A stretch of DNA of 21,381 nucleotides. Source: a virus. Lineage: Duplodnaviria > Heunggongvirae > Uroviricota > Caudoviricetes. The notes beneath the pieces were generated by a model, which worked only from the letters and a program-made list of their open reading frames with translations, was not told the origin of the DNA and did no database searches. This document shows, one piece after another, positions 4,078-21,381 of the stretch; the stretch's first letter is position 1; every line of letters begins with the position of its first letter. The stretch is taken from the IMG/VR virus record IMGVR_UViG_2718217709_000001, one strand, 5' to 3'. The position numbers and the translations under genes are program-made.

Positions 4078-4404
4078 ATGACTAAAAATACTCGTTTTTC
4101 CCCCGAAGTCCGTCAGCGGGCGATTCGTATGGTTCTGGAAAGTCAGGATGAATATGACTCACAGTGGGCGGCAATTTGTTCCATTGCCCCAAAGATTGGC
4201 TGTACGCCGGAGACTCTGCGTGTCTGGGTTCGCCAGCATGAGCGGGATACCGGGGGCGGTGATGGTGGGCTCACCAGCGCGGAACGTCAGCGTCTGAAAG
4301 AGCTGGAACGTGAAAATCGTGAACTGCGCCGCAGTAACGATATCCTTCGCCAGGCTTCCGCTTATTTTGCGAAGGCGGAGTTCGACCGCCTCTGGAAAAA
4401 ATGA
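4078..4404 (+). CDS. IS3-family transposase OrfA (HTH)
   Basis: 108-aa ORF ([22 protein letters not shown]...) recalled as IS629/IS1203-type OrfA; ends at the AAAAAA slippery run. Confidence 0.85.
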
Positions 4405-4818
4405 TGCCACTGCTGGATAAGCTGCGTGAGCAGTACGGGGTCGGACCGGTATGCAGCGAACTGCATATTGCCCCGTCAACGTATTACCATTGTCAGCAAC
4501 AGCGACATCATCCGGATAAACGCAGTGCCCGTGCGCAGCACGACGACTGGCTGAAGAGAGAGATACAGCGCGTATACGATGAAAATCATCAGGTGTACGG
4601 TGTGCGTAAAGTCTGGCGTCAGTTGTTACGGGAAGGAATCAGGGTGGCCAGATGTACAGTGGCACGTCTCATGGCGGTTATGGGACTTGCCGGTGTTCTC
4701 CGGGGTAAAAAGGTCCGTACGACCATCAGCCGGAAAGCCGTTGCCGCAGGCGACCGCGTAAACCGTCAGTTCGTGGCAGAACGACCTGACCAGCTGTGGG
4801 TGGCTGATTTTACTTACG
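4401..4818 (+). CDS. IS3-family transposase OrfB, 5' exon (interrupted by group II intron after ...[10 protein letters not shown])
   Basis: In-frame continuation is found at 7089; the intervening 2270 bp has group II intron boundaries. Confidence 0.75.
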
Positions 4819-5474
4819 GTGTGCCCGGAGTTCAGGGCGGGCATGGATGCTTAAATGAACCGCGAGTCTGTCTGGAATATTGAACCGGTAACTCACGATG
4901 AGAAACCCAACAATCCCACCGGGTGTGACGGTGGAGAACCTGAGCGGCAGTGACCTGCGGCATGCCCGCAGGGTGATGTAACCCGCTGACAACGGGGATT
5001 GAGGCGAGATCACTAAGCCGAGATGATCCTCAAGGTTAAGTACTGAAAGGCTGAAGAACATGAACCCGTTAATCCGCCTCTGTGGGTTGAAAACGTCACC
5101 ACGGCCTACGTGATCTGACAGGCCGTGCAGGAGGAACTGGCAGTAATACGTAAGCACTGCCGGTCGAAGGTGTTTTGACATGTATGCGAAACACCGGGGC
5201 AGCAGCGTCTATCACGCTTGCGTTGCTGACTTCTGCCAACTTGCGGCAAGCAAGGATAAAGAGTGCGACGGGCAGCCTCCTCAGTATGCCTGAGTCCAGG
5301 CAGGTAAACCGGGGAAGGTCAGCGACGGATGTTAAGGGGGCATGGCTCCGATGACGCGCTGGCTGGCGGAGCTTCCGTAGTAGTCCGCGATGGGGAAAGC
5401 CCATTACATGGCGAAGGGAAGCAGTTTGAATGTGTTTGCGACGTGAATTAACTGACCTAACGAGGTGAAGACCT

Positions 5475-6998
5475 TTGATAATCAGCGAAATGCAACGCAA
5501 GCTTGCCACATGGGCAGTCACCGATCCGTCCCTACGGATTCAACGGCTGCTGCGTCTGATAACACAACCAGAATGGCTGGCTGAAGCGGCGCGGATCACG
5601 CTTTCATCAAAGGGGGCCCATACCCCCGGCGTTGATGGCGTGAACAAAACAATGCTACAGGCCAGACTGGCTGTTGAGCTGCAAATCCTCAGGGATGAAT
5701 TACTCTCAGGCCACTACCAGCCCTTGCCCGCCAGACGGGTTTACATCCCTAAAAGCAACGGCAAACTGCGACCACTGGGTATCCCCGCGTTGCGGGATCG
5801 TATTGTTCAGCGGGCCATGCTGATGGCGATGGAGCCGATATGGGAGAGTGATTTTCATACACTCTCATATGGCTTCCGGCCTGAGCGCAGTGTCCACCAC
5901 GCTATCCGCACGGTGAAATTACAGCTCACAGACTGTGGTGAAACCCGGGGACGCTGGGTGATTGAAGGCGACCTGTCCAGTTACTTCGACACCGTACATC
6001 ATCGACTGCTGATGAAGGCTGTACGCCGCAGGATCAGTGACGCACGTTTCATGACTCTGCTGTGGAAAACCATCAAGGCGGGACATATCGATGTCGGTCT
6101 CTTTCGGGCGGCCAGTGAAGGTGTGCCACAGGGCGGTGTTATATCGCCGCTATTATCGAACATCATGCTGAATGAGTTCGATCAATACCTGCATGAGCGC
6201 TACCTGAGCGGGAAAGCCAGAAAAGATCGGTGGTACTGGAATAACAGTATCCAACGGGGCCGAAGTACGGCGGTCAGAGAAAACTGGCAGTGGAAACCCG
6301 CGGTGGCGTACTGCCGCTATGCCGATGATTTTGTCCTCATCGTCAAAGGCACCAAAGCACAGGCGGAAGCCATCAGGGAGGAGTGTCGGGGTGTGCTCGA
6401 AGGCAGTCTGAAACTCAGGCTGAACATGGATAAGACTAAAATCACCCATGTTAATGACGGCTTTATCTTTCTGGGGCACAGGATCATTCGCAAACGCAGT
6501 CGTTATGGCGAGATGCGAGTGGTCTCAACGATCCCGCAGGAGAAAGCCAGAAACTTCGCCGCATCGCTGACAGCACTGTTATCAGGCAACTACAGTGAAA
6601 GCAAAGTCGATATGGCTGAACAACTCAACCGAAAACTGAAAGGCTGGGCCATGTTCTATCAGTTCGTTGATTTTAAGGCCAAAGTCTTCAGTTATATCGA
6701 CCGTGTCGTGTTCTGGAAGCTGGCTCACTGGCTGGCCCGCAAATACCGTACAGGTATCGCTTCCCTGATGAGGTGGTGGTGTAAATCACCGAAACCGGGT
6801 CAGAGCAAAACGTGGGTTTTATTTGGTAAAACCAATCACGGCAAGCTCAGCGGCGAAATACTGTACCGGTTGGTGGGGCAAGGCAAGAAGCTGTTCCGCT
6901 GGCGGCTACCCGAAGGTAATCCCTATCTGAGGACGGAGACCAGAAACACGTATACATCGCGCTTTACAGAAGTGGCAATGGCGTTCGCCAGCATTTAA
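5475..6998 (+). CDS. Group II intron-encoded reverse transcriptase/maturase (no endonuclease domain evident)
   Basis: 507-aa ORF with RT motifs (GIPALRDRIVQRA, YADDFV) and a C-terminal maturase (X) region; no HNH-like Cys/His cluster at the C-terminus. Confidence 0.9.
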   Translation: MIISEMQRKLATWAVTDPSLRIQRLLRLITQPEWLAEAARITLSSKGAHTPGVDGVNKTMLQARLAVELQILRDELLSGHYQPLPARRVYIPKSNGKLRPLGIPALRDRIVQRAMLMAMEPIWESDFHTLSYGFRPERSVHHAIRTVKLQLTDCGETRGRWVIEGDLSSYFDTVHHRLLMKAVRRRISDARFMTLLWKTIKAGHIDVGLFRAASEGVPQGGVISPLLSNIMLNEFDQYLHERYLSGKARKDRWYWNNSIQRGRSTAVRENWQWKPAVAYCRYADDFVLIVKGTKAQAEAIREECRGVLEGSLKLRLNMDKTKITHVNDGFIFLGHRIIRKRSRYGEMRVVSTIPQEKARNFAASLTALLSGNYSESKVDMAEQLNRKLKGWAMFYQFVDFKAKVFSYIDRVVFWKLAHWLARKYRTGIASLMRWWCKSPKPGQSKTWVLFGKTNHGKLSGEILYRLVGQGKKLFRWRLPEGNPYLRTETRNTYTSRFTEVAMAFASI

Positions 6999-7003
6999 AT
7001 GGA

Positions 7004-7037
7004 GAGCCGGATGCGCTGAAAGGTGCACGTCCGGTTC
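7004..7037 (+). ncRNA. Group II intron domain V (catalytic hairpin)
   Basis: GAGCCGGATGCGCTGAAAGGTGCACGTCCGGTTC, about 50 nt before the intron 3' end. Confidence 0.7.
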
Positions 7038-7060
7038 GGGGAGGAGAGGCAGGGAAATAG

Positions 7061-7561
<501 letters not shown>

Positions 7562-7603
7562 GTTCACAGATAAAACACTCTCCAGGAAACCCGGGGCGGT
7601 TCA

Positions 7604-9395
7604 GAATGTGTTTTGCTGCTAGTTCGTATGGAGCTGTTACCCGATTAAATCTGTTTACAAACTCATTCAGCTTACCAGTAGATATTTCATGCGCTTTAGC
7701 ATTTTTTATTGCTCTGGCAACTTTGTATACATCATATAGTCCGCTCATTGTTTCTTTTGGCAAATGTTCAGCCAAAGTCTTTAGCTGTCCACTGTGTTGC
7801 AAGTTTTGCCACCAATCTGCGAAGCCAGATGGATTAAAGTCGGCCCCACGCTTCCCAGAGGAAAGCATATCTCTTAATGCTGTTCCTACTAGCTCCCTTC
7901 GCAATGTTCTTGATGGAGTATTTTGCATAATCTCACGAAACCCTCTCGCATCACCTTTTGCCATAGATTGAAGAGAATTCGTTACTTTATACGCTATATC
8001 CCCATTAAGTGTTTTCCCGCGAAGATTTACCATTTGCCTTTCTAAGTTTTTTCTCATAGCTACAAGGCGTTGTGCGACTTCGAAATCTCGCAAGTATCCA
8101 GTATTGGATAAGACAGATTTTTGGTCTTCAGCTAAAGCTCCATATAGTCTTGATAGCGCTTCTTTATCAGCATCTTTGTATGGCCCCTGCTTTTTATTTA
8201 GGGCATCACCAACTAAACGCCTTTGCCTGTTTAAATTTGCATACGTTAGGATGCTATCTGGGCCGGGGTTTATTGCTGTAAAAACTCGCTTTTCTATTGG
8301 GTCAAGATTATCCCACCCTCCTAAATCATCAGCGATTTTTTCCAGCATAGTGCTTGTGTTATTTGCTTCGACTTTTGTTCTTGGTGATAGAGCGGAATCA
8401 ACACGTTTATATAACTGATCACTACGGTTTTTTAGTGCTTCCATTCTACTATTTATCTGATAAATATATTTTTCGCTCATAGCTAACGCATCTGGCGCAC
8501 CAGCAACATCATCGATTATCTTGCCAGCACTAGAGGCTAATTCGCTTATTGCTTTATCTTCTTGAGCTTTTAACGCTGATCCTGTCCGTGACTTTAGGGC
8601 TTGCTCTACAGCTTGGTATTGCTCATTTCCTGATAAATGAGAAGGAAGAACTGAATCAACATGAAGCCTATTTGCAGCCTCAACAATTTCTTTCTGAGGT
8701 TTTAGATCTAGCCCTTCAAGCGAAGAGGCAAGATTTGGGTTGCCTTGTGCAGATAACTTACGAATTTTCTCTTCGGCAGGAGTAATCCCCTCAATATCTG
8801 GAATCGAAGAAACATTCTTCTTGGTTAATTTCCCAGCTATTTTATTAATTGCAGGGCCAGCAAGTTCGGCTACAGGGCCAGCCACAGCGCCAATAGCAGC
8901 GCCGGAAGCAACATCGCTATTTGTTCCATTGGCTACAATAGCCCCTTCTCCAGCACCAAGCCCTGCGGCGGCAGCCAGTCTTGCCGCCCCTTTGGGAACC
9001 TGAGAAATAATCCCACCACCACTAACAAATGGCGCTGCTTGTCCAACGAACTCACCAACATCTTGTGCGGTTGATGGTTTTGCCGCTAACTTCTGCTGTA
9101 GAGACTGAATTGCGGCTTGCTCTTCTGGTGTCATATCCTGAAACAGGCCAACACCTTTACCAACATCCATCAATCCACTGAGAACGCCATACATAAAACG
9201 GTCGAAACCGTTAGCATTATTAACAACATTTTCCTGTCTGGAATTTTCCTCTGGTGAAACCAAAGGTGATTGCTGCTGTTCTGGTTGGGCATCAAGCACA
9301 AAACCATCAGGAAGCTGTGAACTATCAGGAAACTGTGAGTTATCAGGTTGTTCATCGAGCACAAAACCTTCCGGTAAGATTACATTTGCTGCCAT
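7604..9395 (-). pseudogene. 5' part (597 codons) of the IS-disrupted 705-aa cargo gene: duplicated LPxGFVLDxQP N-terminal motif, Gly/Ala-rich segment, long helical region
   Basis: ORF 7368..9395 (-); residues after codon 597 are read through the IS right end and are not native; AGGA RBS upstream of the ATG at 9395. Confidence 0.7.
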
Positions 9396-10735
9396 TTTCC
9401 GTTCCTGTAAATGATTTTCTGACCAGTTTTAGGGTTGGTTGCCGTTGCGCCTTCTGATATTCCTCCGGTTGCCGCTTTTGCCTGTCCAGTGCCAGCCTGT
9501 GATGTAGGCTGCCCGGAAACATCGTCAAATAGCTTCGCTTTCCTTCTTTCAAGGCTTTTTCTTAGCCCCTGAGGAATAGTTTCTCCATATGTATCGAGAT
9601 ACTCGTCAACCTGCTGGTTAAACTGCTGCCCCATAGCATTGGCGTTGATTTTTGCGGCGTTAACAATGTTATCCTTTGCCTCCTGCGACAGGCCGTTTCC
9701 AGCATTAAGCTGGTCTATGTATCCTTTGATTTGTCCCCATATGCCATCAGACCGCATTACCTGAACCTGTTCGCCTTCACGAACGACTGACTGCGGGTCA
9801 AGAGATTTCATGTAGTTGAAGATAATCCCAAGTTGGGCAGCGCCAGTATTTACCTTGCTAAGGGCTTGCAGAGAGTTTGCCGCCGCTCTGACAGAGTTAT
9901 AATTTTTGCCAAAATTGGTAATGTCAGAATTTAATCCCTTAATTAAGTCTGCTGACGGCTTACCTTTTTGCCCCAGCTCCATTAGCTTCAATCCCATCTC
10001 ATCTGAGTGAATTTGTGCTCGCTGAGCCCTGTCTAGTTGAGCGTTCTGGATATTTGCCCATCCTCTCGCGTTCTCCATGTCAGCCTGACGCATACTTTCA
10101 TCCAGTCGCCCTTGCTCAAGTCGACGACCTTCCATTTGATCTTTGATATCGAAATACTTCTCATGACCGAGAGAAAACAGCGCCAGATTACCTGCGAAAT
10201 GCTGGAAGCCCTGCGGGTCATTAACCTGCATTTCAGCAATAGTTTCTGGAGGGATACCTAAACGACGCATCTCCTGCTCATTATCCATCATGAACCTGCC
10301 AAATGCGCCCTGACCAAGCGATGAGGCTACCTGTGCTTTGAGCGCCAGATTGCCATAATCATCCCTTTGAGCATCATCGACATAACTCATCCCTTTACGG
10401 ACTTCCTCAAACTCTTCTGGGAATGCTGTAATAAGATTACGCATCTGCTCCCTGTCACCGGACGCATAAGCATCTGCATAACCTTTCTGGAATGCCGCTT
10501 TACGTTCCTGCTGTTGCTGCTGCTTATAAATGTCAGCAACTCCAGCCAGACCACGAAGACCTGTCAGAGCAACGTTATTTGCACCTGAGCGAGCCAGTTC
10601 ATTGTTTTCGCGGATCAGACCAAGCGTTGCGTTAATGTCGCTTGCCTTTGGCGCATTCTCATTTTGCGCACCGATGCCAGCCAGAAAACCACCAGAATTA
10701 ATACCCTGTTGCCACGTAGCCATAAATTTACCCAC
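9380..10735 (-). CDS. Hypothetical Gln/Asn/Ala-rich, predicted coiled-coil protein (about 450 aa; likely ATG start at 10723)
   Basis: Long ORF with no Walker or nuclease motif seen; its end overlaps the start of the next gene by 16 nt; the track start at 10735 is GTG, ATG at 10723 follows the upstream stop by 4 nt. Confidence 0.65.
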   Translation of the reverse strand: MGKFMATWQQGINSGGFLAGIGAQNENAPKASDINATLGLIRENNELARSGANNVALTGLRGLAGVADIYKQQQQQERKAAFQKGYADAYASGDREQMRNLITAFPEEFEEVRKGMSYVDDAQRDDYGNLALKAQVASSLGQGAFGRFMMDNEQEMRRLGIPPETIAEMQVNDPQGFQHFAGNLALFSLGHEKYFDIKDQMEGRRLEQGRLDESMRQADMENARGWANIQNAQLDRAQRAQIHSDEMGLKLMELGQKGKPSADLIKGLNSDITNFGKNYNSVRAAANSLQALSKVNTGAAQLGIIFNYMKSLDPQSVVREGEQVQVMRSDGIWGQIKGYIDQLNAGNGLSQEAKDNIVNAAKINANAMGQQFNQQVDEYLDTYGETIPQGLRKSLERRKAKLFDDVSGQPTSQAGTGQAKAATGGISEGATATNPKTGQKIIYRNGKWQQM

Positions 10736-11394: not shown

Positions 11395-11499
11395 GCTGTA
11401 CCACCTGTACCACCATGTCACAAACCCTTGTGTGGCGCGGCCTGCAGGTGGTACAGGTGGGTAAAAATGACCTCTCCCCACCTGTACAGACCTGTACCA
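11395..11499. repeat. Iteron-like cluster A: five copies of (A)CCTGTAC(C/A) / GGTGGTACAGGTGG in both orientations
   Basis: Direct reading: 11396-11405, 11405-11414, 11447-11460 (inverted), 11480-11489, 11490-11499. Confidence 0.5.
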
Positions 11500-12462: not shown

Positions 12463-12506
12463 TGGTTGTTCCCTCTCAGCCAGCCAGAAGAAATGCGTTT
12501 GTTAAT

Positions 12507-12609
12507 GGTATAGGTGGTACAGGTCTGGTATAGGTAAGATATTGACCTGTACCACTATAACGCATTGTTTTTAATGCTGAATTAGCAAAGTGGTATAGGT
12601 GGTACAGGT
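12507..12609. repeat. Iteron-like cluster B: GGTATAGGTGGTACAGGT x2 (12507-12524, 12592-12609), GGTATAGGT (12527-12535) and inverted ACCTGTACCAC (12545-12555); candidate origin
   Basis: Direct reading; located immediately 3' of the primase/helicase gene; same core motif as cluster A. Confidence 0.55.
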
Positions 12610-12638: not shown

Positions 12639-14990
12639 TTAAAAAACATCATAACCCCCCATACCGATCAGACGGGCAAACGCAGCCTGTAGAACTCCGA
12701 CCTCTGGTAGTTCGTAGAACACGCCATTCCCTCGGTCTGGTCTTCCATGCTTCACCAGCCCCATTTGTGCAAGTGATTTACCCAGTAGTGATCTGGCAGC
12801 TGGTTCTTTAAGCTTTTCCCCACGCTCAAGCGACCACGCTACAAATCGACTAACCATATCCTTTGCAAACAAACGGACTTCGCCATTAAACGGAGGTTCA
12901 TTGATTAGCTCGCCATAAAGAAACAATTCAACGCCAGACAGCCCCAGCAAGATTTCTTCACGTAAGGCATCGGTCTGTGGCGCTCGTTGAGGGTCAAAAC
13001 CTGAGAGATCCACCCCTTTAAGATGCCAAAGCAACTTTGCGGCACCGCCATCATTAAGCCAACTGTACAGCCGATCAAAATACTCCCGGCTCTGTGCTTT
13101 TTCAGGAGATGGCTCAAGCACGAGATAGCGGCGCTCTCTTATCCCTGCCTGTAATACCTGTGTGCTGTTACTGGCAAATATCAACCGGGCAAAATTCGGC
13201 ATTGGTTCAGCATCAATTCCCTTGCGCTCAAGGTTAAACGTCGGTTCGCTAATAATCGCTTTAAGTCTGTCAGCTTCAGACGGCTTGTGGATCGTCACTT
13301 CGTCAGCAAATACCAGTAGCTTGTTAGCAAGTATTGAATTGAAGCGCCCTGAAATATGTCCCGCCCCGTTAATGTGGGCGGCGTACTGCCCCAGTATTTG
13401 CAGCAGCGGTTTAACCGTTGTGCCTTTCCCTGTGCCCGGGACAGATTTCATCACGATTGCCACGGACGGTTTTTCATCAGGCTTTTGGATAATGTGCGCC
13501 ATCCACTGGATAAGATATTGGTATGCCTCTTCATTACCGGCACAGACAACCTGCAACAGGTGATTAAGGTATACCGTGCAATCTCCTTCAATTGGTTCCA
13601 GTGCCAGCCCCTCATACAGATTAAAAACATCGTCAGGGCATTTGTCTGGTACTGGATAAAATCCTACGCCTCCTGGCTTGTAGTTCTTCCCACTCCATGA
13701 CAGCCACGCCGATCCCGCCAGCTTTCTGGCGACTCTCGGTTTATGATGAAAATAATGCTGAAATTGTGATAAATCCTCGAAAACGTGCGATACACCGCCG
13801 GTTTGAGAAGGCTTTAGCGACACCACCTTGTGTTTCCCGCCGATGGTGACATGCGTAAACGTCCGGTTGATTTCTTCGAGGACAGCAATTTCATCATCGC
13901 TTAACACCTCGCCAGAACTGATCTCATTCAGCGCCCCGACTGACTGTTTGTGATTTTTCACCTGCGCCCCTTTCCCCCGTGGCTGGTACATCGAATCTTT
14001 AAATGCTGCTGTGGCTGCCGCCAGCCCGTGTTGTTGGTGATAGTCGTTCCAGTCGGCTTTATAGTCAGTCGGTGGCAGAGACACCCAGCCAGCTACGGAA
14101 ATAGCGGCCCTCTCTGCGGCATCTTTCCCCGTGTTGATCCCTCCACTTTCGGAGTTTCCTTGCTGGTGATCGTTATCTGCGGCAATGATGATTTGTGCCT
14201 GTGGATATGTTCTGCGCATGACTTCCGCTACTGGCAACAGGTTGCCAGCGTCGATTGCTGCCACTGTCATTGCGTCAGGGCGAATTAAATGGCACGACAG
14301 GGCGGTAGCCACCCCCTCAGCAATTATGATGCTGTGAGGTCGTTTCTGTGCGTTTATGGCGTGATATGCCCCTCGCTTTGCTGAACCTGTCAGGAGTCTT
14401 TTTTCACCATGTGAGGTAATAGTCTGTGCTGCTGTGACTGCGCCGGATTTATCCACCAGCGCCAGCAACAGAGATCCATCGGGCAACACAGGGAATGTAA
14501 AATCACCTACCCCTTTCGCAACCAGATAATCAGATTTGCCGTTTACAGCCTTTCTGCGCATGTCATCAAACTGACGGGAAAACGTATCCCGTCTTTGTTG
14601 TTCGTCCTTCTCTGCCCTTTTCAGGCGCTCCTGTTCGCGTCGCTGGCGCTCGGTTTCCAGTTGTTCCCGTTTCTGGCTGGTGGCTTCTGGTGTTTCCGTT
14701 GTCCGGTAATCAATACCCAGAACATCAGCGGCAAGAAGCGCCGCCTCTGTTGTGTCGCAGTTATTTACGCGTTTAATTAAATCCAGCCCATCACCAGCGC
14801 CGCACTGATTACAGATGAAGCTACCGCGCCCGTTGTCATCGAACCGGAATCGATCTTTGCCCCCACATGCAGGGCAGGGAGCATGACGGCGCGGAGAGTC
14901 AGGGACATTTATGTTCAGGCAGTCCAGCACATGAGGCCAGTTGTTTTCAGACGCACTGATAACCTGACGGATAAGATCAATGTTTCGCAT
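12639..14990 (-). CDS. P4 alpha-type primase/helicase (N-terminal zinc ribbon, Toprim-like middle, C-terminal P-loop NTPase)
   Basis: 783-aa ORF; CPACGG...CNQCG zinc-binding motif near the N-terminus; Walker A VPGTGKGT in the C-terminal half. Confidence 0.85.
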   Translation of the reverse strand: MRNIDLIRQVISASENNWPHVLDCLNINVPDSPRRHAPCPACGGKDRFRFDDNGRGSFICNQCGAGDGLDLIKRVNNCDTTEAALLAADVLGIDYRTTETPEATSQKREQLETERQRREQERLKRAEKDEQQRRDTFSRQFDDMRRKAVNGKSDYLVAKGVGDFTFPVLPDGSLLLALVDKSGAVTAAQTITSHGEKRLLTGSAKRGAYHAINAQKRPHSIIIAEGVATALSCHLIRPDAMTVAAIDAGNLLPVAEVMRRTYPQAQIIIAADNDHQQGNSESGGINTGKDAAERAAISVAGWVSLPPTDYKADWNDYHQQHGLAAATAAFKDSMYQPRGKGAQVKNHKQSVGALNEISSGEVLSDDEIAVLEEINRTFTHVTIGGKHKVVSLKPSQTGGVSHVFEDLSQFQHYFHHKPRVARKLAGSAWLSWSGKNYKPGGVGFYPVPDKCPDDVFNLYEGLALEPIEGDCTVYLNHLLQVVCAGNEEAYQYLIQWMAHIIQKPDEKPSVAIVMKSVPGTGKGTTVKPLLQILGQYAAHINGAGHISGRFNSILANKLLVFADEVTIHKPSEADRLKAIISEPTFNLERKGIDAEPMPNFARLIFASNSTQVLQAGIRERRYLVLEPSPEKAQSREYFDRLYSWLNDGGAAKLLWHLKGVDLSGFDPQRAPQTDALREEILLGLSGVELFLYGELINEPPFNGEVRLFAKDMVSRFVAWSLERGEKLKEPAARSLLGKSLAQMGLVKHGRPDRGNGVFYELPEVGVLQAAFARLIGMGGYDVF

Positions 14991-16079: not shown

Positions 16080-16270
16080 TTTTCACCACCAAGAATTACC
16101 AGCTCTGCACGGGCATCGTTAACCAAAGATGAGCACGCTTTAATCGCATCCACGACATCAGCAGCGTCCATTTCTTCAGCCGAAAGACTGACAGCAACCA
16201 GGACAGCCGCTGCTTGCTCGATTAATTGAAGTGCGGACGTAAGGCGAGGGGTATTAATTGAGTTATTCAT
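16076..16270 (-). CDS. Hypothetical small protein (64 aa)
   Basis: 4-nt overlap with the downstream gene; start overlaps the upstream reading frame. Confidence 0.4.
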   Translation of the reverse strand: MNNSINTPRLTSALQLIEQAAAVLVAVSLSAEEMDAADVVDAIKACSSLVNDARAELVILGGEK

Positions 16271-16481
16271 TGGTTGCCCCCGTTTTTACTGGCATTTCGC
16301 CACCTTCCAGCAGGAAATGAACGTCACGAACGGCGAGATCCAATATCGCGAGTAACGCCTTCAGTCTTTCGTCTCGTGAGGGAGAGTTGCTCACCAGAAT
16401 GTCGTTAATCACTTCTGTCAGTGTGATGATCTGGCTTGTGCGTTCGAGGGGATCCATATGCACATCGTAGGTTTTAATCAT
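16263..16481 (-). CDS. Hypothetical small protein (72 aa, MIKTYDVH...), possibly the independent 3' end of the long open frame
   Basis: ATG overlaps the stop of the 64-aa MLATT gene (ATGATTAA); same frame as the 355-aa ORF. Confidence 0.35.
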   Translation of the reverse strand: MIKTYDVHMDPLERTSQIITLTEVINDILVSNSPSRDERLKALLAILDLAVRDVHFLLEGGEMPVKTGATNE

Positions 16482-17330
16482 GTGCCACCTCCATGCGGAT
16501 ACGACCAGCAAAAAAGCAGACGTGATCGCGCACCAGAGAACGGCGAGCATCGCGTTCAGACTCGGCAGCAATATGATGAATTTTGGCGGTAATTGTCGGG
16601 CAATCGCGGCGAACTGCGGCGATAATCCAGATAAATTGCGTTTTTTGGGTAGGGGTAGTAGCCAGCATGTGGCAGCCTCCTTCAGATAGCAGGTTACGCT
16701 ACCACCGGAAACGCCAATTTCGCTGGTGGTAGCCCAGACAGGGTTGGCGTAACCGGCTCTGAAGGATACCGGCGCTTCCGAAGAAGCCCCCGCCTGAGCC
16801 ACCATTGATTGACAAAGGCGCTGGATTATACACCAACGCCCAAAAAATGGGTGAGTCAGACCTACGACATAAAAAAAGACGCTTGGCGCGTCATATGTCG
16901 CCTTCAGAATTTTTAGGACGCCAATCCCGGCACCCGTTTTATGAGGTGCCTTATAACCATAAACCGTGTTGCCGCATAACGGCAAGCTCTTTTTTATGGA
17001 CTCCGAAAACTCACTATTGGAAGAACCAGAAGCACAGTACATCGCGCTCATTTCGTTAACGTCACGCGCGTGGACGAAGGTTTTTGTGGAGTCACTACAC
17101 GAGCAGAGAAAGCCATCTACGACCAGAAATTCTCTGGCATAGCCGCTGACCTTCTCAACGCTAACACCATCGACCGTAATTTCTGACATAGTTAAGGCAT
17201 CCGCTCCTACCACCAGCAAATGATAAACTTTGCTTGTATCTGCTGTATTAATGTCTGACTTTGCTGTCATATTGCTGGATTTTGGCGACATACCAGCCAG
17301 TGAAAATATCTTCTTCTGGGCGGTTAGCAT
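16263..17330 (-). CDS. Long open frame (355 aa); 5' part looks like a genuine gene, 3' extent doubtful
   Basis: GGAGG RBS and ATG overlapping the upstream stop by 4 nt; the frame stays open to 16263 but overlaps two well-formed small genes with poor codon usage there. Confidence 0.35.
16474..16668 (-). CDS. Hypothetical small protein (64 aa, MLATTPTQ...)
   Basis: Strong RBS AAGGAGG 7 nt upstream; all eight Arg codons are CGC/CGT and Leu mostly CTG, whereas the alternative long frame uses CTA/TTA/AGG/ATA here. Confidence 0.45.
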   Translation of the reverse strand: MLATTPTQKTQFIWIIAAVRRDCPTITAKIHHIAAESERDARRSLVRDHVCFFAGRIRMEVAHD

Positions 17331-17506: not shown

Positions 17507-18332
17507 GGACCGCCTCCAGACGCTTGGCGAGCCAGCGTTGCGACAGGCGGGTGAGTTCTCCTTTGCGCTGCTCATATTCCATGCCCATATCAATTAACGT
17601 GATATTGGTGCTTTCGAGATATGAGAGGTGCTCAAGCTGTTCTGCGTTCATATGGTCGCGAGGTTCGCCAGAATAGCCATTTATCCGCGCCCACTGCTTA
17701 GCAGTTAGCCCACCAAGAACGATACGAGAAATCATATTGCTCTCGTTTGTGTAGTGGTGTTGCTGCGTCGTTTTCCCCATCTCGGCACGGGCCATATTCA
17801 GCGCATCGCACATTGGCTTGAAGTTGTTTGCGGCACTGATACGGGCTTTTAGCTGGCGACGATAGCGGGCGGCGATTTCAGGCACGCTACGCTGTAATTC
17901 TTTCTCGCACTGGATGAAATAACGGCGGATAGCGCGACCCTGATCATTGCGTTCGATCATTGCCAGTTCTTTCGCCATTCCGACACTTAACAGATAGTCT
18001 TTGCCGGGTCTGCCAGACTGCTTAATCTTGCTGTAAGCCGCGTCATTCGGGCTTTTCCCCAAATTTGGGGAAATTGTTTTATGGACTGAGTAATCGTGCC
18101 CAATGGTGAAGTCATATTCAGAGATGCGATCAGTGATCCATGTAGAGAAGTCTTTTCCCACGCCCAACGCTTTGTGTAACGCTTTTGCGCTAACAATATT
18201 GGTTTCACGCCCGCCTATATGACCAGAAATAACCGGGACAATTGCGGCAAATTCATTACCGTTAATTGTGCCCAGAGAGGCGTTCAGATGAGGGGCGGCC
18301 TCAGAAATTAATCTGCTTTTTTCGATGTTCAT
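17499..18332 (-). CDS. Phage antirepressor-like protein (AntA-type domain)
   Basis: 277-aa ORF; segment DYLLSVGMAKELAMIERNDQGRAIRRYFIQCEKEL matches the AntA/AntB antirepressor signature as recalled; GGAG RBS upstream. Confidence 0.6.
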   Translation of the reverse strand: MNIEKSRLISEAAPHLNASLGTINGNEFAAIVPVISGHIGGRETNIVSAKALHKALGVGKDFSTWITDRISEYDFTIGHDYSVHKTISPNLGKSPNDAAYSKIKQSGRPGKDYLLSVGMAKELAMIERNDQGRAIRRYFIQCEKELQRSVPEIAARYRRQLKARISAANNFKPMCDALNMARAEMGKTTQQHHYTNESNMISRIVLGGLTAKQWARINGYSGEPRDHMNAEQLEHLSYLESTNITLIDMGMEYEQRKGELTRLSQRWLAKRLEAVHV

Positions 18333-18344
18333 TTTTAGTCTCCG

Positions 18345-18776
18345 TTAGGCGGCGTTAAACGCGTCCGGGTAGAGTTTCAGAATGTCGGCAATTTCCTGCT
18401 GAGAAAGTCCGTTGTGATCATTTATGTTCGCAAGATGGTTAACATGAGTGATCACTTTCAGAACATCACCACGGCAGGAGAAACGGTAGCGAAGGTGTGT
18501 TCCGATACCATCAGGATTCTTTTCGTCGATACGCTCCAGAGTGATTCCAAGCTGGCGTTCTAACTCTGTTGCATAGTTACGACCAGAAGACAGACGGCAG
18601 TAGCGAAGAATGTCATTTTCTGTCCATCCCTCTATACCAGTACGCAGCATATAGACTCGGGCACGATGCTTTTTCGGTGTGCGCTTTGGTGCTTGAAGGG
18701 ATTTTGTAAGGGGCGTAATATCAGATACGCGAATATCTGAATTAGCCGCCTGTAATGGGCGGTTTTTCTTTTCCAT
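18345..18776 (-). CDS. Hypothetical protein (143 aa), translationally coupled to alpA
   Basis: Start overlaps the alpA stop by 1 nt; basic N-terminus. Confidence 0.55.
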   Translation of the reverse strand: MEKKNRPLQAANSDIRVSDITPLTKSLQAPKRTPKKHRARVYMLRTGIEGWTENDILRYCRLSSGRNYATELERQLGITLERIDEKNPDGIGTHLRYRFSCRGDVLKVITHVNHLANINDHNGLSQQEIADILKLYPDAFNAA

Positions 18777-18994
18777 CAGGCCACCTTCCCGCGGCGTTCT
18801 GCCAGCCAGTTATTAATTTCCACCGCATCAAACGCAGTCACGTTATCTGTTAGCTTCACTGGGCGTGGAAGAGTGCCATTTTTAACCCATCTATCAATAG
18901 TAGGCAGTGAAACACCTAGCAATTCCGGCATGCGAAAGCGACGGATGTATCCAGTTGTTGGGATAGCTGATGATGCTGGCTTGTGTACTGTCAT
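18776..18994 (-). CDS. alpA: AlpA-family (MerR-like HTH) prophage transcriptional regulator
   Basis: 72-aa ORF; HTH segment LPELLGVSLPTIDRWVKNGTLPRPVKL typical of AlpA-type regulators of P4-like elements; position downstream of int. Confidence 0.7.
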   Translation of the reverse strand: MTVHKPASSAIPTTGYIRRFRMPELLGVSLPTIDRWVKNGTLPRPVKLTDNVTAFDAVEINNWLAERRGKVA

Positions 18995-19465
18995 GTCTCT
19001 AGTAACCTCTCTGATAGCTCATGAAGTTACTTAAAGTTTAGTGGTTGCCCATACAGTATTTCTATTAAGACTAGAATCTATTGAAAGAAATTATAAATCT
19101 ATTGAAAAAATACCGATCCACTGAAAGATTGCAAATGCAGGTGGGATAATTATTTTCTTTATTTTCAATTAGTTACCAGTTTAAAAAATCATTGTTTTAT
19201 CAAAGAGTTATATCTTTCATCGTCATTCATCATGTTTTTACATTTCTTTTTATCTTTTATTATTCAATTGGTTGAGTCGGTTTATAATGGCTCATGATGG
19301 CTTAAAATGGCTAATGATAGCTGGCGTATCTTTTAGAGATGGGGTGATTACAGATGAACTAAGCCGAACAGATATAGCAATGGCTAGGCATAGAATTATC
19401 TATGCTGGTGGAGATGGGTAAACAGGTAATGCCCCGCCATTGCTTTGGAGGGGCGTGAAAAGTGA
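18995..19465. promoter_or_regulatory. AT-rich control region upstream of alpA with phased short repeats (TCTATTGAAA x2 at 21-bp spacing; ATGGCT x3 at exact 10-bp spacing, 19287-19312)
   Basis: Direct reading; 470-bp non-coding gap between orf216 and alpA. Confidence 0.5.
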
Positions 19466-20116
19466 TTAGTCGAGATCGTGGACAGCTAATAAAGCCCGTG
19501 AGATTTTTTCTAGGAATGTGGCTTTTGCTATTCCTTTATGGGATATCCCTTCATCCTTGATTAAGGTTTCTATGTCACGGTATATAGCTGTGCGATTAGG
19601 TTTCCCATTTTGGATGTAGGAAGATGAGCCTGATTTTTTTATCAGCAGATGTACTATCAACCCCATCATTTTCATTGTCCCGTTTTCCTCATCCTGCTTT
19701 CTATGCTGCCCACGTCCGCTGCGGTTGGTTTCTTTGATGTAGTTTACTAACTGGAGTCCTCCAAGGTTTCGGGCTTTTTCTTCCCAGCCCTTGGTGCCAC
19801 GCAAATCATCAATCGCTTCTGATATTTTCTGAACAATTATTTCTGGTGTATTTGTGTCAATAAATGGGTAAGAAGCTAAGAAAATATCAAGGGCATGGCA
19901 AGGCTCATCTTTACTAGTTTTTTCACCTCTGTACACCTTGATAGCTCTGGCAAGATGAGTTCTGACAAAATCGACATATTCGAAATTTTCCTCAGGCACA
20001 TCGCTAATGCGCATAGATGGGTTTAGGCCAGCCAAGGCCACAGCCATTTCATGAGGGGTAATCGATACAGATGAACAAAGCCGTTCGATTGGCGATTTTC
20101 TCAAGATGTTGTTCAC
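19466..20116 (-). CDS. Hypothetical protein (216 aa), low GC, translationally coupled to int
   Basis: ATG overlaps the integrase stop (ATGA); no recognisable motifs. Confidence 0.55.
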   Translation of the reverse strand: MNNILRKSPIERLCSSVSITPHEMAVALAGLNPSMRISDVPEENFEYVDFVRTHLARAIKVYRGEKTSKDEPCHALDIFLASYPFIDTNTPEIIVQKISEAIDDLRGTKGWEEKARNLGGLQLVNYIKETNRSGRGQHRKQDEENGTMKMMGLIVHLLIKKSGSSSYIQNGKPNRTAIYRDIETLIKDEGISHKGIAKATFLEKISRALLAVHDLD

Positions 20117-21381
20117 ATTTGCCTCCGGGCTTTATCGAATGGCGTTACGTTGTAGTCTTTCCCGCTTTCCAGTGCCACCAGCAGATCTGCCCACTGTGCC
20201 AGTGCTGCTTTACGCTCATCAAAATACTGATGACGGTTATAAATCCCCTCTACGCCCTTAATGCGATGATTGAGGCATCGTTCCGCCACGACAGGATCAA
20301 CACCCAATGCTGCTAAATGAGTACGTGCGGTGCGTCGGAAGTCGTGAATCGTGAAATTAGGCACATCCGGCATTTCGGCGCGAACCTTAGCCAGTGCTAC
20401 GGGTAAAGTGCTTTCCTGAATATGTGGGATCATTCTGTTTTGCATCTTCCTGGCCGGAAGCACCCATGCGCTATTACATGAAAAGGTGTGTAGCTCTCTC
20501 AACCATTCAACGGCTGGGGAAGGTAGAGGTATATCAATAGGGTCTCCGTTTTTGCTGCGTTCTTCCGGCAAATGCCATACCGCACCATCTAAATCAAACT
20601 CTTCCCATCGTGCGGCGCATAACTCCATCTTACGAACGCATAGTGCCAGCAATAGCTTAAATGTCAGTTCGTTCTGGCGGCTGAATCCTTTTGCGGTGCG
20701 CATAGCCTCGAATAGCCTGATAAGCTCATCGCGAGTTAGCCAACGGTCGCGGGAAACCTCTTTACCACCAGCATCAGATACTTCAAACGCTGAACAAGGG
20801 TTTATCTCCAGAGCGTGGCGTTTTATCCCATAGTCAAAGATACGGCGTGTCCAGCGTAATACATCTGTTGCTATCGTTGGTGCTCCTCGGTCAACGATAC
20901 CTTTTAACATGTCGTCAATGTGACGTGGCTTAACGTCCTCTACCTTCATATGCCCAATGCAGGGGTTAATATCCTTATCAATTCTCCGGCGAAGGATATC
21001 GGGATGTTTCCATCTCGGAAGTATCTGTCGCTCGAAGTATTCGGCGGCCAGATCTGAAACGCGCATGGCGTTTTTCTCAGCCTCCATTTTTGCCAGTGCT
21101 TCAGCTTTTCGTTCCTGTTTTTCTGCTGCTACGTCATAGCCAAGAGCAACTCTGGCTGACAGCTCTTTTGCTGTTTCTCTGGCTTTTGATAGTGACAGTT
21201 CGGAGTAAGAGCCGATAACCATAGCCCGCTGTTTTCCTGCGAGCTTATATCGGAATCGCCAGAACGGGACTGTGTAGTTTTTGGGGTAGCAAATATAAAG
21301 GCCGTTGCCGTCTGCCTTGCCATCAAATCTGTCTCCCGCCTTTATCCATGCGCGGATCTGCATATCTGTGAGTTTTGGCAT
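20113..21381 (-). CDS. int: P4-family tyrosine integrase (site-specific recombinase)
   Basis: 422-aa ORF; N-terminal arm-binding-type segment (LTDMQIRAWIK...GNGLYI...WRFRYK), catalytic residues (R...HDFRRT...IYNRHQY) near the C-terminus; start codon is the last base of the window. Confidence 0.9.
   Translation of the reverse strand: MPKLTDMQIRAWIKAGDRFDGKADGNGLYICYPKNYTVPFWRFRYKLAGKQRAMVIGSYSELSLSKARETAKELSARVALGYDVAAEKQERKAEALAKMEAEKNAMRVSDLAAEYFERQILPRWKHPDILRRRIDKDINPCIGHMKVEDVKPRHIDDMLKGIVDRGAPTIATDVLRWTRRIFDYGIKRHALEINPCSAFEVSDAGGKEVSRDRWLTRDELIRLFEAMRTAKGFSRQNELTFKLLLALCVRKMELCAARWEEFDLDGAVWHLPEERSKNGDPIDIPLPSPAVEWLRELHTFSCNSAWVLPARKMQNRMIPHIQESTLPVALAKVRAEMPDVPNFTIHDFRRTARTHLAALGVDPVVAERCLNHRIKGVEGIYNRHQYFDERKAALAQWADLLVALESGKDYNVTPFDKARRQM

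What the first reader, a model, noticed from the sequence alone, without database searches (positions are those of the whole stretch)
19466..20116. Integrase-proximal variable-slot gene (orf216) co-transcribed with int
Seen: a 216-aa low-GC ORF whose ATG overlaps the integrase stop; no recognisable motifs. Established: in P4-like satellites the integrase-adjacent region is a known hotspot for accessory and anti-phage genes. Inference: orf216 may be a single-gene accessory function (for example abortive infection), distinct from the distal cargo operon.
Basis: partly seen in the sequence, partly recalled or inferred. Interest (0 to 1): 0.4.

Follow-up and report, generated by a model that had tools for sequence, protein, structure and literature searches.

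The report
Integrase-coupled gene of a phage satellite
A small gene of unknown function, translated straight off the end of the integrase gene of a phage-parasitic island, sits in a swappable slot; conserved DNA boxes always travel with it in front of the island's master switch gene alpA, so it more likely regulates that switch than acts as a stand-alone anti-phage weapon.

Summary
orf216 (19466-20116, minus) is a real gene under purifying selection. It starts at GTG, not ATG, with a GGAGG Shine-Dalgarno 5 nt upstream and a 4-nt GTGA overlap with the int stop.

The host element is a Gram-negative PICI-type satellite at the E. coli yicC/dinD site, not a P4-like one.

The "variable slot" idea holds. 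Of 334 complete E. coli genomes carrying this int, only 110 carry orf216. Islands with 99% identical Int carry unrelated 321-, 316-, 293- or 260-aa genes in the same position.

orf216 is not free cargo, however. Its small family (65 clusters among 1.84 billion proteins; PHROG 30524; no Pfam, PADLOC, PDB or BFVD match) always lies directly after int and upstream of alpA. This holds in E. coli, Klebsiella and Proteus, down to 28% identity.

The family always co-occurs with four phased TTTCAnTGGAAT boxes at the alpA promoter. The boxes are absent from seven islands lacking the family, including EcCICFT073.

Best reading (about 0.4): an int-co-expressed regulator that gates alpA. Binding was not tested, and no HTH fold was detected. 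An accessory or defence role (about 0.25) is not excluded.

The parts
19466..20116 (-). orf216 CDS (216 aa, GTG start); member of PHROG 30524 (unknown function). Predicted all-alpha: N-terminal domain (1-110), long helix (111-162) with an invariant RG.HRK.DE patch, C-terminal three-helix module (139-216).
20122..20126 (-). GGAGG Shine-Dalgarno for orf216, inside the last codons of int, 5 nt before the GTG.
20113..21381 (-). Tyrosine integrase (422 aa). Its TGA stop (20115-20113) overlaps the orf216 GTG. Similarity to sister islands with other slot genes ends at 20137-20141.
18830..20140 (-). The exchangeable cassette relative to sister islands L003/L004: the last ~8 int codons, orf216, the 471-bp intergenic region, and the 5' two-thirds (HTH part) of the alpA-like gene. 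Flanks are 98-100% identical; the alpA 5' part is only 60-70% identical.
18995..19465 (-). AT-rich (34% GC) intergenic control region between orf216 and the alpA-like gene.
19058..19125 (-). Cluster of phased boxes on the gene strand: TTCAGTGGAT (19116-19125), TTCAATAGAT (19097-19106), TTCAATAGAT (19076-19085), with an overlapping inverted GATTCTA and TAATAGAAAT (19058-19067) in the -35 position. Spacing is 19-21 bp. The architecture is conserved in 11 of 12 loci encoding the family.
19035..19040 (-). Conserved -10-like hexamer TAAACT (CCAcTAnnnT block in the alignment) of the putative alpA promoter. Position inferred from the alignment; not shown experimentally.
   Evidence: (alignment), inference
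19001..19031 (-). Inverted repeat (AGTAAC...GTTACT) flanking the alpA Shine-Dalgarno. An analogous GTAAC/GTTAC hairpin is present in sister islands with other slot genes.
19287..19322 (.). 10-bp-period tandem array ATGGCTnnnn x4 (3 pattern matches against 0.12 expected). The sequence is island-specific. Similar arrays occur in PICIs without orf216, so it is probably not an orf216 site; its binder is unknown.
18776..18994 (-). alpA-like HTH regulator gene (72 aa; PF05930 E 6e-6), the presumed target of regulation.

Best explanation
orf216 encodes a satellite-borne regulatory protein made together with the integrase in the integrated state, by translational coupling to int. Its conserved C-terminal three-helix module is proposed to bind four helically phased TTTCAnTGGAAT boxes that cover the -35 region of the promoter of the alpA-like gene, which is the PICI master activator. 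That would gate island induction. A repressor or 'gatekeeper' role is the more natural sign, because the protein is co-expressed with int and one box occupies the -35 position; an activator role is not excluded. The more variable N-terminal domain would be the sensing or partner-binding part. The gene, its target promoter and the DNA-binding half of alpA are exchanged between islands as one cassette, which explains why the slot looks variable. Shown: the gene is real and under selection; it is tightly coupled to int; the slot is variable; the family is position-locked; the boxes co-occur with the family. Inferred: DNA binding, the sign of regulation, and the sensor role.
For: (1) Coupling to int. 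The overlap is 4 nt in the window, L016, L031, L008, L028 and L029, and the spacing ranges from -1 to +9 nt in L002, L030, L005, L025 and L027. A GGAGG lies 5 nt upstream.
(2) Position lock. Every full-length family member examined lies after int, and upstream of an AlpA gene wherever the contig extends that far. This covers E. coli at two att sites, a Klebsiella cfPICI-like element, Proteus and metagenomes. Family identity is 28-33% where Int is only 24-27% identical. Two relatives sharing only the C-terminal module keep the position too: P0104 sits between int and an HTH_17 gene, and P0097 sits upstream of AlpA on a contig that ends just before it.
(3) Conserved promoter. About 110 bp upstream of alpA aligns across 9 of 10 family-positive loci, with four boxes at 19-21 bp spacing, one in the -35 position of a conserved -10-like block.
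(4) Box enrichment. In loci not used to derive the pattern there were 9 hits against 0.9 expected. Eight lie on the gene strand (the ninth is the reverse reading of a palindromic box), all 38-135 nt before the alpA ATG. In the 21-kb window, 3 of 6 hits fall in this 50-bp cluster.
(5) Absence elsewhere. There are no boxes in 7 islands lacking the family: L003, L004, L013, L014, L015, CP4-57 and EcCICFT073.
(6) The boxes do not track AlpA. They occur with two AlpA types whose recognition helices are very different. L015 (no boxes) has an AlpA helix like that of L031 (boxes). EcCICFT073 has a type-B AlpA and no boxes.
(7) The boxes do not track Int. L003 Int is 99% identical to the window's, yet L003 has no boxes.
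(8) Modular make-up. The C-terminal module is fused to unrelated N-terminal regions in distant relatives.
(9) Weak hints. Sub-threshold AlpA, HTH or winged-helix Pfam hits occur in a few C-terminal modules; 3 of 25 hit PF05930, best E 0.003.
Against: No DNA-binding fold was recognised. Foldseek of the full model (pLDDT 87.7) and of the C-terminal module (pLDDT 92.3) found nothing in PDB or BFVD at E<1. Profile searches against PDB sequences and Pfam gave nothing above threshold. The boxes and the gene are physically adjacent in one cassette, so co-occurrence may partly reflect linkage. The binder could instead be AlpA (which activates its own promoter in EcCICFT073, PMC6092414), a host factor or a helper-phage protein. 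The exchanged cassette also includes the AlpA HTH, which fits AlpA-operator co-evolution. The box pattern was derived from five of the positive loci. The negative loci have short intergenic regions and are not phylogenetically independent. One family member (L030) has no strict box. EcCICFT073 is helper-inducible without any such gene, so the function is not essential to PICIs.
Confidence: 0.4

Rival explanations
1. Accessory anti-phage or helper-interference gene. orf216 would be one of many interchangeable single-gene cargos in the PICI 5' accessory region, expressed constitutively with int, acting on incoming phages or on the helper. The boxes would belong to the alpA promoter and be bound by something else.
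For: The slot is variable among islands with 76-99% identical int at the same site. GC content is lower than in the flanks. PICIs are reported to carry immune systems at their 5' or 3' ends (PMC11364771). EcCIMP1 carries a different small gene of unknown function between int and alpA, which its authors treat as a possible accessory gene (PMC11773190). Neither orf216 nor most slot alternatives match a known family, as is common for undiscovered defence genes; the exception is L003 with a weak hit to candidate PDC-S31 (E 0.002).
Against: There are no PADLOC hits. No known enzymatic or effector family and no solved fold matches the 216-aa protein, which is predicted all-alpha. There is exactly one gene in the slot in every island examined. 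The family diverges about as much as the adjacent Int (72% vs 93%; 28-33% vs 24-27%), and was found only in the int-alpA position in every locus examined, unlike defence genes that hop between hotspots. A conserved cis-element accompanies it.
Confidence: 0.25
2. Integrase partner. The protein would work with Int as an accessory, directionality or integration-control factor, as suggested by translational coupling. The shared C-terminal module would dock onto Int or onto the Int-AlpA excisive complex.
For: Start and stop overlap, or nearly so, in all full-length members. The family diverges in step with Int. The last int codons are swapped together with the slot gene.
Against: Int proteins 99% identical to this one are paired with unrelated slot genes. 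EcCICFT073 Int integrates and excises with no such gene (PMC6092414). The AlpA-like protein is the usual excisionase or RDF of these elements (PMC10111431). This reading does not explain boxes placed at the alpA promoter, about 2 kb from the int-proximal end of the island.
Confidence: 0.12
3. Replication-linked module. The AT-rich intergenic region with 10-bp arrays would be a second origin or crr-like site, as in P4, and orf216 an origin-binding or copy-control protein.
For: The region is AT-rich with 10-bp-period arrays. In L002 one array (TGTTCATC x6) resembles the TGTTCACC repeats found downstream of its primase, about 4.4 kb away. From my memory of P4 biology, these match the P4 ori/crr iteron sequence and spacing.
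Against: In the window the array (ATGGCT) differs from the GTGGTACAG iterons downstream of the primase. The same holds in L005 and L008. Primase type does not co-vary with the slot gene: P4-family primases occur with the 316- and 293-aa alternatives, and a DUF927 primase occurs with a family member. Arrays also occur in EcCICFT073, which has no family member.
Confidence: 0.05

Closest known systems
SaPI Stl / Gram-positive PICI Rpr master repressors
   Same: Both are satellite-encoded, lie next to int and are expressed with it in the integrated state. Both are highly variable between otherwise similar islands. Both are modular, with a conserved part and a variable part. The proposed role is also the same: keeping the induction operon silent until a helper signal arrives (PMC6092414 for the Stl/Rpr layout).
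   Different: No sequence or fold similarity was found. Stl has a recognisable HTH and sits divergently from the operon it represses. Here all genes are co-directional, the conserved module is C-terminal, and no HTH was detected. DNA binding and derepression are untested. Gram-negative PICIs are described as controlled by the activator AlpA, with no known repressor (PMC6092414).
PICI 5' accessory (immune) region genes
   Same: orf216 occupies the int-proximal end of a PICI, in a position that differs between related islands (PMC11364771).
   Different: No defence-family match was found. Unlike typical cargo, the family is restricted to this position and co-diverges with int.
P4 Vis / AlpA-family regulators and the P4 late promoter PLL
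   Same: A promoter just upstream of the alpA/vis homologue carries multiple repeated protein-binding boxes. The same island also carries P4-like C4 and isrK (CI/seqA-type) RNA elements (PMC10111431). That Vis binds repeats at PLL is from my own knowledge.
   Different: orf216 is not an AlpA homologue at curated thresholds. The boxes do not follow AlpA type. P4 genes psu, sid and delta were not found among the proteins I scanned.
E. coli K-12 CP4-57 yfjH, and EcCIMP1_002
   Same: Each is a single uncharacterised gene occupying the int-alpA interval of an AlpA-type island (PMC11773190).
   Different: YfjH (318 aa) is on the opposite strand and shows no similarity to orf216 (best BLASTP E about 0.4-0.6 against family members). 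EcCIMP1_002 is a much smaller protein. The CP4-57 alpA upstream region has no boxes.
PHROG 30524 (unknown function)
   Same: Full-length profile match, E 3e-34.
   Different: The PHROG carries no functional annotation. The only match in 50,697 phage records is 'Escherichia phage vB_KppS-Ant', a 16.5-kb element with int, AlpA-like regulator, primase, capsid, portal and terminase genes. That layout looks like a capsid-forming PICI rather than a phage.

Membership tests
PHROG 30524 | Significant full-length match to the family profile | tested here: met
   E 3e-34, residues 11-209 on profile positions 14-213 of 220
Known anti-phage defence proteins (PADLOC-DB 2.0) | Match to any defence-system protein model | tested here: not met
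   0 families at E<=0.1
Abortive-infection / single-gene defence (functional class) | Protection of a naive host against phage on expression | not testable with these tools
   Needs a phage panel
Excisionase / RDF (AlpA, Xis, HTH_17) | Match to PF05930, PF12728 or related winged-helix excisionase models or folds | tested here: not met
   No Pfam hit for the full protein. Only 3 of 25 C-terminal modules hit PF05930, all weakly (best E 0.003). No Foldseek match.
PICI 5' accessory / variable region | Lies between int and the regulatory gene of a PICI-type island | tested here: met
   int 20113-21381, orf216, alpA-like 18776-18994; AntA/Ash zone, primase and late genes follow
PICI 5' accessory / variable region | Content differs among closely related islands | tested here: met
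   334 genomes carry the int, 110 carry orf216. Alternatives of 321, 316, 293 and 260 aa sit at the same site.
P4-like satellite hotspot cargo | Host element is P4-like (psu/sid/delta, cos-proximal hotspot between psu and int) | tested here: not met
   The gene layout is the Gram-negative PICI four-zone type. The Pfam, PHROG and NCBIfam scans returned no P4 capsid-size or late-control family among the proteins tested. Definition of the P4 hotspot is from memory of Rousset et al. 2022, as cited.
Stl/Rpr-like satellite master repressor | Encoded next to int and expressed in the integrated state | tested here: met
   4-nt overlap with int and a Shine-Dalgarno inside int. Expression itself is inferred.
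Stl/Rpr-like satellite master repressor | Recognisable DNA-binding (HTH) domain | tested here: not met
Stl/Rpr-like satellite master repressor | Cognate operator sites at the promoter of the induction operon | tested here: inconclusive
   Phased boxes at the alpA promoter co-occur with the family, in 11 of 12 loci against 0 of 7. The binding protein was not identified.
Stl/Rpr-like satellite master repressor | Derepression by a helper-phage protein | not testable with these tools
   Needs genetics or biochemistry

The most novel reading that the evidence does not exclude
The orf216 family would be a previously unrecognised, island-encoded gatekeeper of alpA in a subset of Gram-negative PICIs and capsid-forming PICIs. 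It would be a functional analogue of the Gram-positive Stl/Rpr repressors, built on a new three-helix DNA-binding module that recognises phased TTTCAnTGGAAT boxes. Its N-terminal domain would sense the helper phage. Swapping the gene, the promoter and the AlpA HTH as one cassette would then re-programme which helper induces the island.
Probability: 0.25. Interest if true: 0.7.

Novelty: new variant of a known kind. Interest (0 to 1): 0.5.

Why it matters
The 2018 description of Gram-negative PICIs shows that helper phages raise alpA expression. [quoted passage not shown] My paper searches found no later identification of one. An island-encoded protein family that always accompanies a conserved four-box architecture at the alpA promoter gives a concrete, cheap experiment: gel shift, reporter fusion and deletion. 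If the protein gates alpA, it would show that some Gram-negative satellites have a protein checkpoint on top of AlpA and the P4-like RNA immunity. It would also show that this checkpoint is exchanged as a cassette between islands with identical integrases, which bears on helper specificity and on the use of PICIs as engineered delivery vehicles. If it is instead a defence gene, it is a new single-gene candidate present in about 4% of complete E. coli genomes, including O157, O103 and O111 EHEC strains.

Tried and rejected
1. Homology between orf216 and the genes that replace it in sister islands. hhalign gave probability 0.7% and the family HMM gave negative scores on all four alternatives. 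My eyeballed resemblance of the C-terminal helices is not supported.
2. A shared N-terminal 'S..EAA.L.G' module between orf216 and the alternatives. An HMM of the alternatives' N-termini hits only P0104 and no orf216-family member.
3. Calling the C-terminal module an HTH from its 'GLSKSTIYxKI' look. No Foldseek hit was found for a pLDDT-92 model. PDB sequence and Pfam profile searches were below threshold.
4. Replication origin or crr idea: rejected. See the fourth rival explanation.
5. The 10-bp arrays as orf216 binding sites. EcCICFT073 has such an array (AACAACnnnn x6) without the gene. The window and L016 have nearly the same AlpA helix but different arrays, so AlpA is not an obvious binder either. 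The arrays remain unexplained.
6. The boxes as integrase arm sites. L003 Int is 99% identical and L003 has no boxes.
7. tRNA at the island end: none in the window.
8. Literature. No paper mentions WP_001059729 or phrog_30524. Fillol-Salom et al. 2022 (Cell), on PICI immune regions, is not held, so I could not check whether a family member was tested there.
9. The E. coli cueO-site variant (L005) has no megablast match in the complete-genome collection.
10. The search for related loci with the mixed alignment failed for lack of a conserved stretch.

Full report
**Observation.** The window holds a 651-nt ORF at 19466-20116 on the minus strand. It lies directly downstream of a 422-aa tyrosine integrase at 20113-21381, which carries Arm-DNA-bind_3, Phage_int_M and Phage_integrase domains.
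- On the coding strand the junction reads GGAGGcaaatGTGAAC. GTG (20116-20114) is the orf216 start, and it overlaps the int TGA by 4 nt.
- A GGAGG lies 5 nt upstream. Two E. coli homologues of identical length start with ATG at the same position.
- Against those homologues pN is 0.18 while pS is 0.76-0.79 (saturated), with no indels. The ORF is therefore a gene under purifying selection.
- GC content is 42% for the gene and 34% for the 471-bp region downstream, against 49% in the flanks.
- No Pfam, NCBIfam or PADLOC family matches. The only hit is PHROG 30524, of unknown function, at E 3e-34.

**What the element is.** The order on the minus strand is as follows.
- int, orf216, and a 72-aa AlpA-like HTH gene.
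- orf143, AntA and an Ash-family gene.
- A 783-aa Zn-ribbon/Toprim/DUF5906 primase.
- A P22-type injection-translocase gene and neighbouring genes.

Rfam finds C4 antisense RNA and isrK inside the ash gene. This matches the four-zone organisation described for Gram-negative PICIs: Integration, Bro (with CI/seqA-like RNAs), Replication and Late (PMC10111431). It is not a P4 layout. In E. coli 99-3165, which is 100% identical over 19000-21381, the island lies between dinD and yicC.

**Is the slot variable? Yes.**
- Megablast of 19000-21381 against 5,426 complete E. coli genomes finds the int in 334 genomes, but the whole query in only 110.
- In the remainder, similarity stops at window 20137-20141, inside the last int codons.
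- At the same chromosomal site, with Int 86-99% identical and the same downstream backbone, the slot holds a single unrelated gene. It is 321 aa in L003, 316 aa in L004, L012 and L013, 293 aa in L014 and 260 aa in L015.
- These alternatives show no similarity to the orf216 profile and no match to known families.
- A sliding identity profile places the other cassette boundary near 18830, inside the alpA-like gene. Identity is 98-100% from 18200 to 18800, then 60-70% across the part of the gene that encodes the AlpA HTH.
- The exchanged unit is therefore the int tail, the slot gene, the intergenic region and the AlpA DNA-binding half.

**orf216 is nevertheless not free cargo.**
- An exhaustive profile search of 1.84 billion representative proteins finds only 65 clusters. 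All named members are 'hypothetical', and those with a named source organism are from Enterobacterales.
- Every locus I could inspect has the same arrangement: int, then the family member (from a 4-nt overlap to a 9-nt gap), then 290-680 bp of AT-rich DNA, then an AlpA gene wherever the contig reaches that far.
- This holds in E. coli at a second att site (L005-7), in Proteus (L008-11), and in 'phage' vB_KppS-Ant, which looks like a capsid-forming PICI (L002).
- It also holds in yicC-site islands of other taxa (L027, L028, L030), in EHEC O103:H2 (L031) and in metagenomic contigs.
- Family identity to orf216 is 28-33% where Int is 24-27% identical and the AlpA proteins are not detectably similar.
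- Two distant relatives share only the C-terminal ~75 residues, and they keep the position. P0104 lies between int and an HTH_17 gene. P0097 lies just upstream of AlpA and a DUF3987 gene.
- P0104 also carries the N-terminal module of the 316-, 321- and 260-aa alternatives (leave-one-out HMM E 1.7e-4). The slot proteins therefore form a mosaic set.

**Structure.** AlphaFold2 with 25 homologues gives a confident model (pLDDT 87.7) with only helical elements.
- It has an N-terminal domain, a 52-residue helix carrying the invariant RG.HRK.DE patch, and a C-terminal three-helix module.
- The C-terminal module modelled alone has pLDDT 92.3.
- Foldseek finds nothing in PDB or BFVD at E<1 for either model.
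- Profile searches against PDB sequences find nothing either.
- Three of 25 C-terminal modules give sub-threshold PF05930 (AlpA) hits, best E 0.003. That is a hint only.

**The cis-element.**
- In all five family-positive islands first examined, the region 80-135 nt before the alpA start carries two or three direct repeats at 19-21 bp spacing.
- Aligning the 150 nt upstream of alpA from ten family-positive loci shows one architecture in nine of them.
- The architecture is TTTCAnTGGAA, then TTTCAnTGGAAT, then TTTCAAnAGATTCCA (an inverted copy), then TGGAAnTnCTG in the -35 position of a conserved CCAcTAnnnT block. The rest of the intergenic DNA is unalignable.
- A strict pattern derived from five loci gives 9 hits against 0.9 expected in six further loci. 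Eight are on the gene strand, and the ninth is the reverse reading of a palindromic box. All lie 38-135 nt before the ATG.
- In the 21-kb window, three of six hits are these boxes.
- The pattern is absent from seven islands without the family. These include EcCICFT073, which has int, a 365-bp gap and a type-B AlpA with no slot gene, and also K-12 CP4-57.
- EcCICFT073 was examined after the hypothesis was formed, as a possible refutation.
- By my own arithmetic, 11 of 12 against 0 of 7 gives a one-sided Fisher p of about 2e-4. The loci are not independent, and the negative intergenic regions are short.

**Who binds the boxes?**
- Int is excluded: L003 Int is 99% identical and L003 has no boxes.
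- AlpA is the default expectation, because AlpA activates its own promoter (PMC6092414) and its HTH is swapped together with the cassette.
- However, the boxes are the same for AlpA proteins whose recognition helices differ widely: LPTIDRWVKNG, PATIWRYAKRP, RSTRWKMEQEG and SGTLTVWRSTG.
- Also, L015 (no boxes) has an AlpA helix like that of L031 (boxes), and a type-B AlpA island lacks them.
- The one constant partner of the boxes is the family's C-terminal module, whose third helix (G-L/I-x-K-S/A-T...K-I) is its best-conserved stretch.
- This is comparative inference. A host or helper factor cannot be excluded.

**Model and alternatives.**
- I rate 'int-co-expressed regulator acting on the alpA promoter' at about 0.4. 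Repression is the likelier sign, because one box occupies the -35 position and the protein would be made in the integrated state.
It fits the slot variability and published PICI biology (PMC11364771). It has no positive evidence, and it does not explain the position lock or the boxes.
- An Int-partner role is about 0.12.
- A replication role is about 0.05. Primase type and iterons do not co-vary with the slot.

**Unexplained.** Island-specific tandem arrays of 9-10 bp period lie nearer the slot gene: ATGGCTnnnn x4 at 19287-19322 here, against 0.12 matches expected by chance. They also occur in EcCICFT073. They track neither orf216 nor the AlpA helix.

**Prevalence.** orf216-like DNA is present in 202 of 5,426 complete E. 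coli genomes. 113 records are at >=99% identity and 91 at about 70%; the 70% group includes O157:H7, O103:H2 and O111:H8 strains.

**Verdict.** Function remains unproven.

Noticed in passing
window 16722-16809 (-) and 16872-16949 (-): Rfam C4 antisense RNA (79.9 bits) and isrK (60.5 bits) lie inside the Ash-family gene (16263-17330). This is the P4 CI/seqA-type RNA immunity arrangement described for Gram-negative PICI Bro zones (PMC10111431).
   Followed up: partly
window 4078-7088 (+): A group II intron sits in or next to an IS3-family element. The reverse transcriptase/maturase is at 5475-6998 (TIGR04416, E 8e-102) and an Rfam Intron_gpII match is at 7002-7088. The IS3-family element is marked by an ALIL frameshift pseudoknot at 4359-4475 and overlapping ORFs 4078-4404 and 4401-4883. 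This block has 51-57% GC against about 46% around it.
   Followed up: partly
window 19287-19322; L033 8161-8260; L002 7130-7330; L005 6697-6723; L008 6801-7002: Every PICI int-alpA intergenic region examined carries tandem arrays of 9-10 bp period with island-specific sequence: ATGGCTnnnn here, AACAACnnnn x6 in EcCICFT073, and three different arrays in vB_KppS-Ant. The binding protein is unknown. The arrays track neither orf216 nor the AlpA recognition helix.
   Followed up: partly
window 12506-12609 and 11396-11414: GTGGTACAG-type short repeats lie directly downstream of the primase gene (12639-14990), with an inverted copy about 1.1 kb further on. This is probably the island's replication origin, as in other PICIs.
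   Followed up: no
window 19001-19031; L003 10807-10850; L004 10917-10960: A conserved GTAAC...GTTAC inverted repeat brackets the Shine-Dalgarno of the alpA-like gene. It is present in islands with orf216 and in islands with other slot genes. It may control alpA translation.
   Followed up: no
L003 10921-11886, L004 11023-11973, L014 2486-3367, L015 2614-3396, L017 1548-2660: The genes that replace orf216 form a mosaic set. The 321- and 316-aa proteins share only a 78%-identical C-terminal 74 aa. The 321-, 316- and 260-aa proteins share an N-terminal 'YYSLDKAAKLxxCExxDLxH' module. P0104 combines that N-terminal module with the orf216-family C-terminal module. All are uncharacterised and widespread in Enterobacterales.
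   Followed up: partly
window 7368-10735 (-): A P22-type injection-translocase homologue (PF16928, E 2.5e-73; 9380-10735) and a neighbouring 675-aa gene lie in the island's late zone. This suggests capture of ejection-protein genes from a P22-like helper.
   Followed up: no
L001 16041-16820 versus window 12639-14990: In E. coli 99-3165, which is identical to the window over int-orf216, the primase gene is reduced to 780 nt. Some carriers of this cassette are therefore decaying, probably immobile islands.
   Followed up: no
L002 (LR881103.1, 'Escherichia phage vB_KppS-Ant'): This 16.5-kb 'phage' record has int, an orf216-family gene, an AlpA-like regulator, a primase, and capsid, portal and terminase genes. 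It has TGTTCACC-type repeats after the primase. It looks like a capsid-forming PICI deposited as a phage.
   Followed up: partly
window 19272-19421 (+): A 49-aa ORF on the opposite strand overlaps the tandem array. No conservation was checked, and it is probably spurious.
   Followed up: no
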